Source of the DNA: Myxococcales bacterium
GTDB taxonomy: Bacteria > Myxococcota_A > UBA9042 > JABWCM01 > BTVJ01
Length of the DNA: 64,000 bases
Assembly (NCBI GenBank): GCA_045863395.1
Contig: BTVJ01000017.1
Coordinates: 32,001-96,000 of the forward strand
Direction of reading: 5' to 3'
Made by a program: the position numbers
In this document: positions 28,646 to 43,600 of the stretch, piece by piece
How positions within the stretch are numbered: the first letter of the stretch is position 1
Layout of the letters: each line of letters starts with the position of its first letter

Positions 28646-31600
28646 GTCTACCTGCGCACTGCGGTCAGCGTCGAGGAGGGCGGCTGGGCCAACTACGGCT
28701 ACGTGAAGATGCCGGACTACCGCTGGGGCATCTTCCTCGCCGATCAGGTTCCGGGACGCACCATCGGCTTCGGTGACAACGCCGGGCAGCCGGTCTGGCA
28801 GCAGGTGCCGGGCGAGCACCGCAACAACCTGCGGCGCCTCATCGTGACCCAGGCGGACACCGAGCCCGCCAGCGTCGAGCAGCAGCGCCTGCTCGGGCAG
28901 ACCTGCCCGTCGCTGTATGACCTCCGCAACCTGTTCCAGGTCAACGTGGAGGAGGGCCGCCACCTCTGGGCCATGGTCTATCTGCTCCACAGCCACTTCG
29001 GGCGCGACGGCCGCGAGGAGGCGGAGGAGCTGCTCCAGCGCCGGAGCGGCGAGGCGGACCACCCGCGCATGCTCGAGGCCTTCAACCACCCCATCAAGGA
29101 CTGGCTGAGCTTCTTCTGCTTCACCATGTTCACGGATCGGGACGGAAAGTATCAGCTCGCCGCCCTGGCGGAGAGTGGGTTTGATCCCCTCTCGCGGACG
29201 ACCCGCTTCATGCTCACCGAGGAGGCCCACCATATGTTCGTGGGCGAGACCGGCGTCGAGCGTGTGGTGCAGCGGGCGTGCGAGCTGACGAAGGCCGATC
29301 CCAACGGCGACGCCCGCGCACAGGGGGGCATCGACCTCGTCACGATCCAGAAGTACGTGAACCTGTGGTACTCGCTGTCGCTGGACCTCTTCGGCGGCGA
29401 GATCTCCAGCAACGCGGCGTCCTTCTTCGGCGCGGGCCTCAAGGGCCGCTTCAAGGAGGACAAGTACGAGGATCACCTGGCGCTCGAAGGCTCCTATCGC
29501 ATGGAGGTCCCCACCGACGGCCAGCTCCAGGGCCAGGACGTGCCCCTGCGCAACGCCATGAACGAGATCCTGCGCGACGCCTACGTGGAGGACTCCCAGC
29601 GCGGCGTCGACCGCTGGAACAAGGTGCTGGAGCGGGAGGGAATGGACTTCCGCATCACCCTGCCGAGCCGACGCTTCCACCGTCACCAGGGGATCTACCG
29701 GGACCTGCGCTTCGACCCGGCAGGGAACCTGCTGACCGAGGACCAGTGGGAGGCCCGCAAGGGAGGGTGGCTCCCGACGGCGGCCGATCTGGAGTACGTG
29801 GCGAGCCTGCAGCGGCGCCCGATCTACGCCCCCGGCCAGATGGCCCAGTGGATCGCCGCTCCCCGCAAGGGCATCAACGGCCTGCCGCTGGAGTACCAGT
29901 ACGTGCGCCACGACTCCTGATCACACGCCCATGACTCCCCTCTCCCGCAGCTCCTCCAGACACACGGGACAATACGCCGCGCCCTTCAGATCGATCTCCT
30001 CCACGTAGGTGGAGCTGCGCATGACGCAGCGATACTCCTGGCAGTGGATGAGCCCAAAGGTGTGGCCCAGCTCGTGGACTGCCTCCTTCTCGAGGCGGTC
30101 CAGGTGGAGGCGCTCATCGGGCGGCAGGCCGTAGAAGCGCGGGTCGAGGCGCGCCGACGACACGACCGCCGCGCGCCCGTCGAGCTGGGCCTCCCCGAAC
30201 ACGAAGGTCAGCACCGGAACGAACAGGTCCACGCCCGTCACGCCGATGATGCGGCTGCTGCCCGTCGGCTCGGCCAGCAGGAGGGCGAGGAGCCGCGTCG
30301 AGCTGTACTGCGCGCGCCGGGGCTCAAAGGTGGACTCGGGGTCGAACGTCGGCGCGCGGATGCGCGTGTCCATGCCCAGCGCGACTCCGACCCGCGCGGC
30401 GAGCGCCTCCATGTGTGGCCGCATGGACCCAGGGAGTATGGGCACGAGGTCCAGCACGGTGGCTCCCTCAGGCGCCCTCGCGCCGCAGGTCGTACCTCTT
30501 GATCTTGGCGTAGAGGGTCGTCCGGTCGATGTCCAGCAGCTCCGCCGCCTTGCTGATGTTCCAGCCCTCCCGGTCGAGCACCGCCTTGATGTGCGCCTGC
30601 TCCATGGACGCCAGGGAGTCTCCCGCCGGCGGGCGCACCGCCGCCGCCTGGACGAAAGGCAGGTCGTCGGCACGAATCAGCGGGGGGCGCCCGACGACCA
30701 TCGCGCGCTCTACGGCATTCGCAAGCTCGCGCACGTTCCCGGGCCAGTCGTGGGCCATCAGCCGCTCGACGGCGGCCGGCTCGAAGTCGGTGATGTGCTT
30801 GTCCATCTGCAACGAGAGCTTCCGCAGGAAGTGCCGCGCCAGCAGGGGAATGTCGCTCCGACGTGATCGCAGCGGGGGCACGGTCAAGGTGAACACGTTG
30901 ATCCGGTAGTAGAGGTCCTGCCGGAACCGCCCCTGGGCGACCAGCTCCTCCAGGTTCTCGTTGGTGGCGCACACCACCCGAAAGTCCACGTGGATCTGCT
31001 GGCTGCCGCCCACCCGTGTCACCTCGTGGGTCTCCAGCACGCGGAGCAGGTCCACCTGGGTCTTGGGGCTGATGGTGCCGATCTCGTCCAGGAACAGGGT
31101 GCCCCCGTCGGCCAGCTCGATCTTCCCCTTTCTCCGATACTGGGCGCCCGTGAAGGCGCCCTTCTCGTGACCGAACAGCTCGCTCTCGAGCAGTGTCTCA
31201 GGCAACGCACCACAGTTGACGGGCACCATTGGCAGATAGCGCCGCCGGCTGTTGGCGTGAATCGCCAGAGCCACGAGCTCCTTCCCCGTGCCGCTCTCTC
31301 CACGAATCAACACCGTGGCGTCCGTCTCCGCCACCTGCTGGATCAGCCCCAGCAGCCGATTCATCTCGGGGCTCTCTCCGACGATGGTGCTCGCGCTGCG
31401 CAGCTCGTCGATGGTCTCCCGGAGCTGCGCGTTCTCGGACTCCAGCCGCTTCTGCTCCAGGGCGCGGCGCACCAGGTGGCTGAGCTCGTCCGGGTCGACG
31501 GGCTTGGTCACATAGTCGAAGGCCCCCTGTTTGAGCGCCCGGACGGCCGTGTCCACCGACGCGAAGGCCGTGATCATGATCACGACGGTGCCAGGAGCCG

Positions 31601-40600: not shown

Positions 40601-43600
40601 TCTTCAATACATTTCAACCACTTGCGAGCGACCGCCGAGAATCGCCACACCGCTGTCGAGAAATCCAACGCAATTTGGGGGCTCTGCGACACCTCCGCGA
40701 TTGCCCCTCCGCGCCAATGCTGGCCTTCGCCACGCTCGGAGGGCTGTGGCACGCCCCTTGCCATCACCTGGGCCCGAGGTTGGCGGGGGCGCCCTCAGGA
40801 GACCGAACGGAGAGGAGGCTGACATGAAGACCGCAGGAACAGAGGTGACGTGGATGAAGACGAGTCTCGCTGCTCTGGCCGCCGTGGCGCTGCTCGTGCT
40901 GGCGCTGCCTGTCCTCGCCGCCGCCTCCATCGCGGCGCGCATCGTGGTGCCGGTGGTGGTGCTCGGCGCGGTGGCGGTGCTGCTGCTGGTGCCGTCGCTC
41001 CGGCGGCGGGTGGTGCTCGGTGAGGACGAGATGCAGTACAGGGGCCTCCGCGTGCCCCTGGAGGGCCTTCTACACTCCGCACACACGTGGGTGAAGGAGC
41101 GCCGCGGGAGCCTGGTGGCGGGAGTCGATGACCTGATGCTGCGGGTGCTCGGTCCGGTGGACCGCGTGGAGCTGCCCGCGGTGGGGACCGTGCTCGCGGC
41201 GGGGGCCCCGATGGCGCGCCTGCACGGCGGCGGGCGGTCCATCACGGTGCGCGCCCCGGTGGCCGGGCGCGTCGAGGCGACCAACGACCGCCTGGACAGG
41301 GACCCCTCGCTGCTCGTGCGGTCTCCCTACCGAGACGGCTGGGCCGTGCGGATCGCGCCGTCGGAGCAGCCCACCGGCCTGCTGAGCGGCACGCGGGCGA
41401 CGCGATGGTTCGCTTCGGAGGTGGACGGGCTCCTGTCGATGCTGTCCGGGCCCACGCTCGGCCACGCGACCATGCACGACGGCGGCGCTGTGACGGACGC
41501 GCTCCACGAGGACCTGGACGACCTGACCTTCCGCCGCGTCAGCGCGCGCTTCTTCGGCGGCGAGTGCTGAGCAGGAGCAGGGTCAGCAGCCAGGCCAAGG
41601 TCGAGGGCGCCGGCGAGGGGCCCACGCCGCAGCCTCCCGAGGACCCCCCTCCCGGCGCCGCTCCCCCCCCATCGCTGCTCTTCCCCCCATCGGGCACCGT
41701 GTCCACGGAGCCACCGTCCGCGGCCCCGGCTCCCGCATCCGTCACGGTGACAACGGAGTCCGCCCCGCCCGGTTGAGAGTCGTCCGCCCCCCCTCCCGAA
41801 TCCTTGGGGGCACCGGCGTCGGGCGCCCCGGAGTCCTCTGCGTCGTCAGACGGACCCACCGCCGAGTCCCCGCCGGGAGCTCCGGTGTCGTTGATCGCGA
41901 TATCCAGGCTGTCATTGCCGGTGTCGTCCTCGCCCGTGTCGCCCGCGGTGTCGCCAGCGGCCCCGGCGTCATCCCCGCCCGCGTCGTCCCCACCCCCTGC
42001 ATCCCAGACGCCGGCGTCTTCCCCACCCCCAATGCAGGCGCCGTTCTCGCAGGTGCCCGCGCCGCACGAGCCACACGAGCCACCGCACCCGTCGTCGCCG
42101 CACTCCATGCCCGTGCACGCCGGCACGCAGGGGCAGCCGCCCAGGTCCGGGCAGGCGCCGCACACGTTGTCGCAGCAGTCGCCGTACCCGAAGCACTCCT
42201 CGTCGCAGTAGCACCCGCTCGGCGCCTGGTTGCCGCACTGGTCCTTGCACCCGCCGGTCACGTCCACGCACGCATCGCCCTCGCACTGCTTGCCGGGCCC
42301 ACAGACCCCGCAGGAGCCCCCGCACCCGTCCGGGCCGCACGCCTTGCCGTCGCACTTCGGCGTGCAGGGACCGCACCCCGAGACGCCGGGGCAGTCCTCG
42401 CACACCTTGTCGCAGCAGTCGCCGTAGCCGAAGCAGAGGTCGTCGCAGTAGCAGCCCACGCTGGACTGGCCGCCGCACTTGCCCGCACAGAACCCACCCG
42501 TCACGCAGGCCCCGCCCGAGCACCACTGGTCCGCCCCGCAAGTGCCGCAGGTGCCGCCGCACCCGTCGTCGCCGCACGACTTGCCGCCGCAGCTCGGCGT
42601 ACACGCCTCGCACACGCCCCCCTTGCAGGCCGTACCCGGCGCGCACGCCCCGCAGGAGTCTCCGCACCCGTCGTCGCCGCACGCCTTGCCGGCGCAGCTC
42701 GGCACGCAGCAGCCCTTGGTGCCTGGGCAGGCCTTGCACACGCCCTCGCAGCAGTCCCCATAGCCGTGACACTCGTTGTCGCACCAGCACCCGGACGGCG
42801 CCTGCCCGCCGCAGTGGCCCTGGCACTCGCTGGACCCGCAGGCGCCTCCCTCCAGGCACACCTGGCCCGCCGGGCAGGTCCCGCAGGAGCCCCCGCACCC
42901 GTCGTCGCCACACTGAATCCCCTTGCACTTCGGCTGGCACGCCACGCACTGACCGGTCGCGGGGATACAGTCGTCCGTGCCCGAGCAGCTCCCGCAGGTT
43001 CCCCCGCACCCATCGGGGCCGCACGTCTTGCCCTTGCAGGCGGGGGTGCAGCACTGGAAGCTGGCGCACACCTGGAAGGGGCCGCAGGTGCCGCAGTCGA
43101 CCCCGCAGTAGGAGCCGCACGCGATCCCCTCGCAGCTCGGCTGGGCCGGGCACGCGCCACACGGGAAGCCACAGTCCAGCTCACAGGCGCTCGCACAGAA
43201 CTCATCCCAGGCATCGGTGCAGCAGGTCGGGTACTTGGCGCAGACACACGCCTCGCACGGGCACCCCCCGCAGCCGGCCTTCGTCGAAGGCAGACACGGC
43301 TTGGGCAGCGGGAGGCACTTGAAGAGCCCATCCACGCACTCGGTGCCCGGCCCGCAGGTGCCACAGGAGAACCCCTGCGGGTCCTTGCCGCACTCCTTGC
43401 CGCCGCACTGGGGGGTCGCACAGACCCCCGTGTCCAGGCACACGCCGTCCCCGGGGCACGCGCCGCACCCACCGGGACACTGTGGGCTGCACGCGCCGCC
43501 GGCGCACGCCGCCGGACACCCGCCGCAGGCGATGGCGTGGGTCCCACTCGGATCGGTCGCGCCCTTCGGCTGCCCGCAGTCGTAGTAGCCGAGGGGGTTC

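What a model noticed while it worked through the whole genome (the two positions that open the first line are those of the whole stretch)
29921..41570. Widespread undescribed operon: lipoyl-less GcvH-like proteins + HybAB-like NrfD/ferredoxin + sigma54 two-component syste [...]
Three GcvH-fold proteins that lack the lipoyl lysine (two with an N-terminal membrane anchor, one with a Cys-rich C-x-W-x3-G..C..C-x2-C head) sit with an NrfD-cytochrome c7 fusion, a 4Fe-4S protein, a HAMP kinase, a sigma54 regulator and an archaemetzincin protease. The module recurs across many phyla. It points to a non-lipoyl role for the H-protein fold in a membrane redox/sensing unit and gives bacterial archaemetzincins a conserved context.
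Evidence so far: Genes g02327-29, g02334-38. Of 53 archaemetzincin loci of at least 15 kb (Acidobacteriota, Ignavibacteria/Bacteroidota, Gemmatimonadota, Eisenbacteria and others), 53 have kinase and regulator, 49 a GcvH-like gene, 41 two or more, 45 both GcvH-like and NrfD. At the lipoyl column only 5 of 141 aligned sequences have Lys, one being the true GcvH control; 60 have Gly; 53 carry the Cys head. Peptidase_M54 lies near a sigma54 regulator in about 3700 of 8300-10200 genomes (neighbours.tsv, call 69).
(Added by a program. Inside this text positions count along the whole contig: contig position 32,001 is position 1 of the stretch shown here. "Call 12" and the like, gene names such as g00115 and contig names such as C1 are that model's own, and its searches are not shown. 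The text may have been shortened before it was handed on; [...] marks where a part breaks off. The agent that wrote the report below was given it as the finding of a first reader that could run no searches.)

Follow-up and report, generated by a model that had tools for sequence, protein, structure and literature searches.

The report
Redox-signalling cassette with lipoyl-less H-proteins
This is a real, widespread and apparently undescribed bacterial gene cassette in which a sensor kinase and its gene activator switch on look-alikes of a lipoate-carrier protein that have lost the lipoate site and gained a new tail, and these travel more faithfully with a dedicated zinc protease than with the membrane redox proteins beside them.

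Summary
The genes are real, but they are not one operon and the centre lies elsewhere. One H-like gene (40824-41570) is on the opposite strand, behind its own sigma54 promoter. All three H-likes have the GcvH fold, lack the lipoyl lysine, and share a missed ~70-residue helix-xDGG-helix tail found in no true GcvH tested (0 of 49).

In 60 loci chosen by that tail, protease, regulator and kinase were present in 41, 42 and 41, the NrfD/Fe-S pair in 31. Only 3 of 37 NrfD-chosen loci had an H-like gene. Sigma54 sites sit directly upstream of H-like genes (41 of 64; 2 expected), with a TGTTG-N7-CAACA enhancer. The kinase carries a haem-c Cache sensor. The proteases form one clade with an intact active site. 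H-like domains are fused to receiver, Hdr/Mvh and Fe-S domains.

Best reading (55%): a redox-responsive sigma54 circuit whose H-like products are adaptors feeding back on it, probably through the protease, with the quinol module an optional output. No function was tested, and ten literature searches found no description. This scan noted the module before on other DNA at least nine times.

The parts
40824..41570 (+). HL1: 248-aa GcvH-fold protein, two predicted N-terminal TM helices, Gly at the lipoyl position, C-terminal helix-xDGG-helix tail; divergent here
40747..40761 (+). sigma54 -24/-12 promoter of HL1, perfect match to TGGCAC-N5-TTGC
   Evidence: one of 2 perfect matches in the window; enrichment upstream of H-like genes
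40654..40670 (.). enhancer-like palindrome (TGTTG-N7-CAACA type, 2 mismatches)
   Evidence: rank 3 in the window with a matrix built without the window
40529..40545 (.). enhancer-like palindrome (1 mismatch)
   Evidence: rank 2 in the window
40463..40477 (-). weaker sigma54-like promoter of the HL2 operon (GG-N10-GC kept, 2 mismatches)
   Evidence: a 2-mismatch match alone is at chance level, so the support is its position 81 bases before the HL2 start, between two enhancer sites
39671..40396 (-). HL2: 241-aa GcvH-fold protein, one N-terminal TM helix, Gly at the lipoyl position, xDGG tail
38889..39674 (-). HybA/HmcB-like 4Fe-4S protein, C-terminal TM helix, no Tat signal
37334..38908 (-). HybB/HmcC-like NrfD protein (11 predicted TM segments) fused to a trihaem c7 domain
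36589..37314 (-). HL3: 241-aa soluble GcvH-fold protein with four-Cys head, Glu at the lipoyl position, xDGG tail
36078..36503 (-). 141-aa protein of no known family (inserted, not part of the cassette)
35240..35728 (-). SRPBCC/AHSA1 protein (inserted)
33922..35127 (+). SAM methyltransferase ORF, start uncertain (inserted, opposite strand)
33617..33841 (-). 74-aa Cys-rich peptide with a lipoprotein-like signal (my reading), no family (inserted)
31830..33443 (-). membrane histidine kinase: TM, periplasmic Cache-fold sensor with CxxCH plus a second C-x4-CH motif, TM, HAMP, HisKA, HATPase
30468..31820 (-). sigma54-dependent response regulator (REC-AAA-HTH) of the cassette's own subfamily
29921..30457 (-). 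178-aa archaemetzincin without signal peptide, HExxHxxGxxHC and Cys4 intact, member of the cassette-linked clade

Best explanation
The conserved unit is a four-part sigma54 signalling cassette: kinase, activator, archaemetzincin, and one or more lipoyl-less H-fold proteins with an xDGG tail. The HybA/HybB-like quinol module is a frequent but optional output. Steps: (1) The kinase reads a redox or gas signal, here through periplasmic c-type haem (motifs and homology shown, ligand inferred). (2) It phosphorylates the activator (standard two-component biology). (3) The activator binds TGTTG-N7-CAACA and opens sigma54 promoters in front of the H-like genes, and so also of co-transcribed Fe-S/NrfD-c7 genes (sites shown, binding inferred). 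(4) The H-likes carry no lipoate and work as protein-interaction adaptors. The H fold plus tail docks on a cassette partner; the exchangeable N-terminal part (TM anchor, four-Cys metal site, Fe-S or Hdr/Mvh domains, receiver domain) sets location or reports cytoplasmic redox state (architecture shown, role inferred). (5) This closes a feedback loop. My leading guess for the partner is the cytoplasmic archaemetzincin, with the flexible G-x-T-M-x-D-G-G loop as substrate or docking loop. The kinase is the next candidate. Step 5 is inference only.
For: Tail-chosen census: protease 41, regulator 42, kinase 41, all three 39, NrfD 31 of 60; protease without NrfD 14, NrfD without protease 4. NrfD-chosen loci: H-like gene in 3 of 37. 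Same 201 Desulfobacterota genomes: 47 of 51 tail-bearing genomes have M54, against 27 of 150 others; 33 of 95 M54 genes lie within 2 kb of a tail. Strict sigma54 sites: 41 of 64 lie in the 3.1% of bases upstream of H-like domains, 2.0 expected. Enhancer with at most 2 mismatches in 33 of 36 upstream regions against 3.1 (max 7) in shuffles. Cassette activators cluster: all 58 in one 65-row group, support 94 in a quick tree. Cassette proteases cluster: 62 of 63 in one branch, support 97 by FastTree; they keep the catalytic Glu in 60 of 60 and have Thr (53 of 59) where stand-alone ones have Asn (34 of 36). That position matches AfAmzA Asn79 in the bulge-edge substrate segment (segment named in PMC3427221, passages). 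TM-receiver-H fusions exist (P0217, P0218; Atlas cluster of 58). The tail is family-specific and keeps DGG in 125 of 147, in a low-confidence loop between confident helices. In 5 of 60 loci the protease is next to an H-like gene and not next to kinase or regulator. Precedent for a regulatory bacterial archaemetzincin fold: CarG (PMC8156234, passages).
Against: No function was tested. The protease is usually adjacent to the regulator (54 of 60), not to an H-like gene (12 of 60), and 4 of the 5 exceptions cluster on one branch of the protease tree. Fifteen of 60 tail loci have neither protease nor NrfD within the fetched stretch. Some H-likes sit with kinase and regulator but no protease (L002, L162, L163). 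The receiver-H fusions have a degenerate or missing DGG, and Asp is replaced in about 19 of 147. H domains fused to HdrA/MvhD and NuoG-like Fe-S domains fit a redox-subunit role equally well. The enhancer consensus came from the same regions it was tested on. It also precedes four unrelated sigma54 promoters in this genome, which has 39 other activators. The 60 loci were the best-scoring and long-frame hits, not a random draw, and kin are not independent.
Confidence: 0.55

Rival explanations
1. The H-likes are structural or electron-relay subunits of the redox complexes (Fe-S/NrfD-c7 here, Hdr/Mvh in some Desulfobacterota). Kinase, activator and protease merely control and mature that complex. 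This is closest to the first reader's view.
For: HL2 overlaps the Fe-S gene and HL3 follows NrfD within 19 bases. H domains are fused to HdrA/MvhD/Molydop (L148-L150) and to 2Fe-2S/4Fe-4S domains (L153-L156). Membrane-anchored H-likes mostly occur with NrfD (33 of 36 haem-kinase loci with NrfD). The four-Cys head could hold a metal centre (inference).
Against: Of 37 NrfD-chosen loci, 34 lack H-likes, including close NrfD-cytochrome fusions. Fourteen of 60 tail loci have the protease and no NrfD. TM-anchored H-likes occur with the haem kinase without a strong NrfD hit in 5 loci. The H domain itself shows no conserved cofactor ligands.
Confidence: 0.25
2. The H-likes are carriers of a different modification. 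The protease cuts at the double glycine, or the Asp is modified, and the H fold carries the product, in analogy to sulfur-carrier or ADP-ribosylated GcvH-L proteins.
For: GG is nearly invariant (146 and 144 of 147) in an exposed flexible loop, and an intact protease travels with it. A GcvH-fold protein carrying a second modification on an Asp is known (PMC4518038, passages).
Against: No activating enzyme, ligase, sirtuin or macrodomain appeared among the 54 proteins from 11 loci scanned against Pfam (only part of the neighbours were scanned). The Asp is not invariant. About 25 residues of conserved helix follow the GG.
Confidence: 0.12
3. The H-likes are co-regulated passengers with an unrelated job (for example binding lipoyl-handling enzymes) and do not touch the cassette's other products.
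For: Solitary tail-bearing H-likes behind the same promoter and enhancer occur beside CoA-transferase and 2-oxoacid:ferredoxin oxidoreductase genes or in unrelated context (L055, L061, L168, L170).
Against: Linkage to a specific protease clade across several phyla, receiver fusions, and the match between kinase location and H-like location: 38 of 42 haem-kinase loci have a TM H-like, while 13 non-haem-kinase loci without NrfD have none.
Confidence: 0.08

Closest known systems
Glycine cleavage H-protein (GcvH), LbpA, and GcvH-L of SirTM operons
   Same: Barrel-sandwich H fold: AlphaFold model of HL3 against E. coli H-protein 3a8i_E, E 3e-12, TM 0.90 by target, rmsd 1.4; Pfam GCV_H over cut-off.
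   Different: No lipoyl Lys or Ex2Kx10G motif (motif from PMC4518038). A ~70-residue xDGG tail (median 75 residues after PYxxGW against 27 in true GcvH). TM, Cys, receiver or Fe-S N-termini. All NCBIfam GcvH-type cut-offs missed. The genome has a true GcvH elsewhere, between gcvT-like and gcvP-like frames (names from my reading of the translations).
HybA/HybB of hydrogenase-2 and HmcB/HmcC of the Hmc complex
   Same: Best NCBIfam matches of the Fe-S and NrfD genes (HmcB 256, HybA 224; HmcC 319, HybB 294 bits), same gene order.
   Different: All below cut-off (420, 263, 550, 450). No hydrogenase or HmcA/D/E/F in the window stretch. A fused trihaem c7 domain, and no Tat signal on the Fe-S protein (19 of 47 Fe-S genes in H-like loci lack one).
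sCache_heme sensors (Geobacter GSU0935, GSU0582; DUF3365/Tll0287 family)
   Same: The profile of the kinase sensor hits 3b42 (E 4e-7) and 3b47 (E 6e-5). The model has a Cache fold, and CxxCH is invariant in 43 of 43. PMC12889525 (first part and passages) reports NO-sensor properties for signalling-fused members.
   Different: A second invariant C-x(2-5)-CH motif plus a further nearly invariant His. Pfam PF11845 was not hit. The sensor set was chosen by having CxxCH, so that motif's invariance is partly by construction.
Archaemetzincins AmzA, and CarG of the Myxococcus CarD-CarG complex
   Same: NF033823 over cut-off (150 against 145); AmzA structures at E 1e-26 to 1e-18. CarG shows this fold working in bacterial transcription control (PMC8156234).
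   Different: Unlike CarG the catalytic Glu is kept (60 of 60; NF033824 88 against 250). Unlike AmzA and stand-alone bacterial copies, the bulge-edge Asn is Thr and the S1'-wall Phe/Asn are variable.
AtoSC / ZraSR sigma54 two-component systems; accessory inhibitors such as Sda and KipI; lipoyl domain L2 acting on pyruvate dehydrogenase kinase (the last three recalled, no call)
   Same: Kinase and activator architecture (best NCBIfam hits AtoS, ZraS, AtoC, ZraR); the idea of an induced small protein feeding back on a kinase system.
   Different: Below cut-offs (AtoC 488 against 714; ZraR 430 against 760). To my recall none of these has a protease or H-fold accessory.

Membership tests
GcvH / LbpA / GcvH-L lipoyl carriers | barrel-sandwich H fold | tested here: met
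GcvH / LbpA / GcvH-L lipoyl carriers | lipoyl Lys in Ex2Kx10G | tested here: not met
   G, G, E in the window; 1 of 146 family domains has E-x-x-K
GcvH / LbpA / GcvH-L lipoyl carriers | NCBIfam cut-offs (NF002270, TIGR00527, TIGR03077, NF045810) | tested here: not met
   best 62 against 117
GcvH / LbpA / GcvH-L lipoyl carriers | context with gcvT/P, sHdr or lipoate ligase genes | tested here: not met
   none in the window stretch or among 54 proteins scanned from 11 loci; neighbours of other loci not scanned
Hydrogenase-2 HybAB | HybA and HybB model cut-offs; hydrogenase subunits in the operon; Tat signal on HybA (Tat recalled) | tested here: not met
   224/263 and 294/450; no hydrogenase in 29921-41570; no Tat signal
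Hmc complex | HmcB/HmcC cut-offs with HmcA 16-haem cytochrome and HmcE/F | tested here: not met
   256/420 and 319/550; only a fused trihaem domain here
NrfD-family quinol oxidoreductase modules (broad) | NrfD membrane subunit next to a multi-4Fe-4S subunit | tested here: met
   PF03916 and PF13247 over cut-off
NrfD-family quinol oxidoreductase modules (broad) | quinol oxidation or reduction activity | not testable with these tools
   needs an assay
Archaemetzincin (M54) | HEXXHXXGXXHCX4CXMX17CXXC | tested here: met
   window sequence; invariant columns in 59 rows; motif from PMC3427221 abstract
Archaemetzincin (M54) | proteolytic activity | not testable with these tools
   AmzA enzymes were inactive on many substrates (PMC3427221)
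CarG (non-proteolytic) | Glu-to-Gln change and CarD partner | tested here: not met
   Glu in 60 of 60; NF033824 88/250; CarD not searched
sCache_heme sensor | periplasmic Cache fold with CxxCH | tested here: met
sCache_heme sensor | match to PF11845 (DUF3365/Tll0287) | tested here: not met
   only weak Mcp40H-20_sensor and sCache_3_2 hits, below cut-off
sCache_heme sensor | covalent haem and NO binding | not testable with these tools
   needs spectroscopy

The most novel reading that the evidence does not exclude
A new class of protease-gated two-component circuit. A lipoyl-carrier fold has been re-purposed as an inducible redox reporter whose conserved xDGG loop is the long-sought natural substrate or activator of a bacterial archaemetzincin clade. 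Its swappable heads (membrane anchor, Cys4 metal site, Fe-S or Hdr domains, receiver) feed the state of the electron-transport chain back to a haem-sensing sigma54 system in anaerobes of many phyla.
Probability: 0.3. Interest if true: 0.85.

Novelty: new variant of a known kind. Interest (0 to 1): 0.65.

Why it matters
Archaemetzincins have solved structures, but the archaeal enzymes were inactive on many test substrates, and the authors suggest strict specificity or a missing activator (PMC3427221, passages). This cassette names a specific candidate: a conserved loop in a co-inherited protein family. That makes an open question testable with two small soluble proteins. It also defines a large family that is annotated as 'glycine cleavage H protein' in databases and probably mis-assigned: 1,873 clusters at 50% identity carry the tail, in 40 of 201 Acidobacteriota and 51 of 201 Desulfobacterota genomes sampled. 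Such genes can inflate glycine-cleavage predictions in metagenomes. Finally, it supplies a regulator, a promoter and a candidate binding site for an uncharacterised respiratory module in soil, sediment and sludge bacteria.

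Tried and rejected
Complex prediction: kinase cytoplasmic dimer + protease + HL1 domain, with HL1 scored as partner. Verdict 'no answer': runs 0.57, 0.55, 0.52; partner-replaced controls 0.00 and 0.00; kinase-replaced control 0.59. The tool says this is no evidence for or against binding, and that each kept chain should be sent alone.

Literature: ten searches combining GcvH/H-protein, NrfD/Hyb/Hmc, archaemetzincin, sigma54, Hdr and taxon terms returned no paper describing the cassette. 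The library lacks most subscription papers, and supplements were not opened. bioRxiv 10.64898/2026.10.01.755906 (passages) treats only Lys-bearing carriers.

The tail profile against the PDB gave nothing below E 0.12. The stand-alone Cys-head protein has no Pfam family, and the head is low-confidence in the model (pLDDT 45-65), so its metal is unassigned. The orphan matched only unnamed clusters.

One search returned mostly true GcvH loci (49 of 80 lacked a lipoyl-less H-like, by my reading), so I switched to the tail profile. The 'longer' homologue search found only 5 proteins among 8,000 crowded candidates, so fusion frequency is unknown.

I rejected the idea that the signal-less Fe-S protein depends on an H-like gene: signal-less copies occur in loci without H-likes (L114-L124). 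Its side of the membrane stays unresolved.

RNA runs X15, X17 and X19 hold contigs over parts of HL1 and HL2-FeS-NrfD, but also over the inserted genes and intergenic DNA. Contigs cannot show transcription, so I did not use them as evidence.

The activator tree is a quick tree; the careful search did not finish. The window-wide sigma54 scan at 2 mismatches is at chance level (62 against 63).

Full report
Observation. On the minus strand run HL2 (40396-39671), the 4Fe-4S protein (39674-38889), NrfD-c7 (38908-37334) and HL3 (37314-36589). Four inserted genes follow, then kinase (33443-31830), activator (31820-30468) and archaemetzincin (30457-29921), with gaps of 9 and 10 bases among the last three. 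HL1 (40824-41570) is on the plus strand. A DNA contig from a study other than the possible source spans 34467-41816 with one difference, so the arrangement is not an assembly error. In the three closest relatives the order is HL1-HL2-FeS-NrfD-HL3 on one strand. In the two with enough contig, kinase-activator-protease follow about 4 kb later behind different inserted genes. The four inserts matched no other fetched locus.

The H-like proteins. An AlphaFold model of HL3 (60-row alignment, mean pLDDT 82.8, core above 95) matches H-proteins of the PDB (3a8i_E, E 3e-12, rmsd 1.4). At the lipoyl position the window proteins have G, G and E. Among 146 of 147 aligned family domains (one lacked the anchor Pro) there are 61 G and 11 K, and one K has the E-x-x-K context. 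All members continue for about 70 residues beyond the H fold in a long helix, a flexible loop ending in xDGG (125 of 147) and two short helices. A profile of this tail hits none of 49 true GcvH and nothing in the PDB below E 0.12, but 1,873 clusters of a 50%-identity library. It is found in 40 of 201 Acidobacteriota, 51 of 201 Desulfobacterota and 7 of 201 genomes of the window's own phylum. Record titles add Planctomycetota, Gemmatimonadota, KSB1 and others. By crude rules, 166 members divide into TM-anchored (80), Cys-headed (64, two of them also TM) and bare (24). Fusions place the domain behind HdrA/MvhD/Molydop domains, behind NuoG-like Fe-S domains plus a Cys head, and behind TM plus receiver domains.

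What travels with what. To avoid choosing loci by the protease, I fetched 60 stretches of up to 20 kb from the tail tables (27 and 33; best scores and long frames first, so not a random draw). The protease was present in 41, activator 42, kinase 41, all three 39, NrfD 31. Protease without NrfD occurred in 14, NrfD without protease in 4, neither in 15. Choosing instead by NrfD in the own phylum, 3 of 37 loci had an H-like gene. At genome level, 47 of 51 tail-bearing Desulfobacterota genomes have an M54 gene against 27 of 150 others (kin inflate this). Cassette proteases fall on one branch (62 of 63, support 97), apart from 36 stand-alone copies. They keep the catalytic Glu (60 of 60) and differ at the bulge-edge and S1'-wall positions named for AfAmzA. 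Cassette activators also cluster (quick tree). The kinase comes in two forms. One is a membrane form with a periplasmic Cache domain related to Geobacter GSU0935/GSU0582, with CxxCH and a second C-x(2-5)-CH (42 loci). The other is a PAS form (three scanned; one shows a weak N-terminal Rossmann-fold hit). Of the 42 haem-kinase loci, 38 have a TM H-like and 36 have NrfD. Thirteen non-haem-kinase loci have Cys-head H-likes, no TM H-like and no NrfD; three further non-haem calls with NrfD look truncated or frameshifted, or were not resolved.

Regulation. In 93 tail-bearing loci, 41 of 64 strict sigma54 sites lie in the 3.1% of bases just upstream of an H-like domain (2.0 expected), covering 26 of 60 protease loci. 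Upstream of these promoters a palindrome TGTTG-N7-CAACA occurs with at most two mismatches in 33 of 36 regions against 3.1 in shuffles (the consensus was drawn from the same regions). In the window, two such sites (40529, 40654) lie between the divergent promoters at 40463-40477 and 40747-40761 and rank 2 and 3 in 64 kb. Two close relatives have five sites before HL1. The motif is not exclusive: it also precedes four sigma54 promoters of unrelated secreted proteins in this genome. The H-like genes are thus the first and sometimes only targets of the cassette.

Mechanism. Shown here: domain content, loss of the lipoyl site, the tail, co-occurrence, promoter and enhancer positions, clade structure. 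Established biology: kinase-to-activator phosphorylation, sigma54 activation, and the quinol role of NrfD/Fe-S pairs (recalled). Inferred: the signal, binding of the activator to the palindrome, an adaptor role for the H-likes, and feedback. The conserved tail implies a common partner, and the only genes common to most loci are kinase, activator and protease. I favour the protease, because its clade has an altered substrate edge, the loop is flexible and exposed, and it stays with H-like genes in five loci where it has left the regulator. Against this, the protease is next to the regulator in 54 of 60 loci, and four of those five loci are kin. The match between kinase location and H-like location points to the kinase as the alternative. 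A role as subunit of the redox complexes (25%), as carrier of another modification (12%) or as passenger (8%) is not excluded.

Comparison and novelty. The parts resemble GcvH, HybAB/HmcBC, sCache_heme sensors, AtoSC/ZraSR and AmzA/CarG. They fail the defining tests for GcvH, hydrogenase-2, Hmc and CarG, and meet those for the broad NrfD and M54 families (and membership table). Ten searches found no description. Papers seen: PMC3427221, PMC4518038, PMC8156234 and bioRxiv 10.64898/2026.10.01.755906 as passages; PMC12889525 as first part and passages; the others as listings only. Supplements were not opened and could list such genes in proteomes. This scan had noted the module on other DNA at least nine times; those notes are unchecked and not counted as support. 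Their summaries do not mention the tail, the enhancer motif, the Hdr/Fe-S/receiver fusions or the separability from NrfD. Verdict: a real, undescribed variant of a sigma54 redox two-component system with two novel accessories; interest 0.65, and 0.85 if the protease-tail link holds.

Noticed in passing
window 17808-17935 (-), gene 16362-17699 region: A second perfect sigma54 site with the top-scoring enhancer palindrome about 100 bases upstream, before a secreted Cys-rich protein. Three more such pairs lie on contigs C22, C4 and C16. This may be a wider regulon or another activator with a similar site.
   Followed up: partly
window 26664-29920 (+): Two-domain enoyl-CoA hydratase-like and PaaA/PaaC-like genes, by recall benzoyl-CoA pathway boxC and boxB. 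The stop codon of the second abuts the protease's stop with no gap.
   Followed up: no
L148-L150: About 1000-aa fusions of HdrA-like, 4Fe-4S, MvhD/FlpD and Molydop_binding domains ending in a lipoyl-less H domain with tail.
   Followed up: partly
L153-L157: NuoG-like Fe-S + Cys head + H fusions, and stand-alone ~120-aa proteins made only of two Cys heads, next to activator and protease in Acidobacteriota-sample genomes.
   Followed up: partly
L152:8173-10833: An open frame that reads like an acetyl-CoA synthetase (my reading) and runs into a copy of an H-like domain; possibly a recent duplication.
   Followed up: no
L017, L042, L034: Soluble PAS kinases of the cassette, with neighbours MetF/MetV and, in L017 and L042, HdrA-like genes (plus HdrB-like and MvhD genes in L017); L017's kinase has a weak N-terminal Rossmann-fold hit.
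   Followed up: partly
L118: Fe-S/NrfD-hexahaem genes with the haem kinase and a related activator but no H-like gene or protease in 20 kb; its genome had no tail match.
   Followed up: no
L131 and L247 (own genome, contigs C28 and C42): A second Fe-S/NrfD-cytochrome module with a 16-haem cytochrome and no H-like gene, and a second, divergent stand-alone M54 gene.
   Followed up: no
L060, L061: Solitary TM H-like genes followed by a small protein, an acetyl-CoA hydrolase/transferase and 2-oxoacid:ferredoxin oxidoreductase genes.
   Followed up: no
window 41539-41570: The 3' end of HL1 overlaps by 32 bases the end of a convergent 989-aa Cys-rich gene.
   Followed up: no
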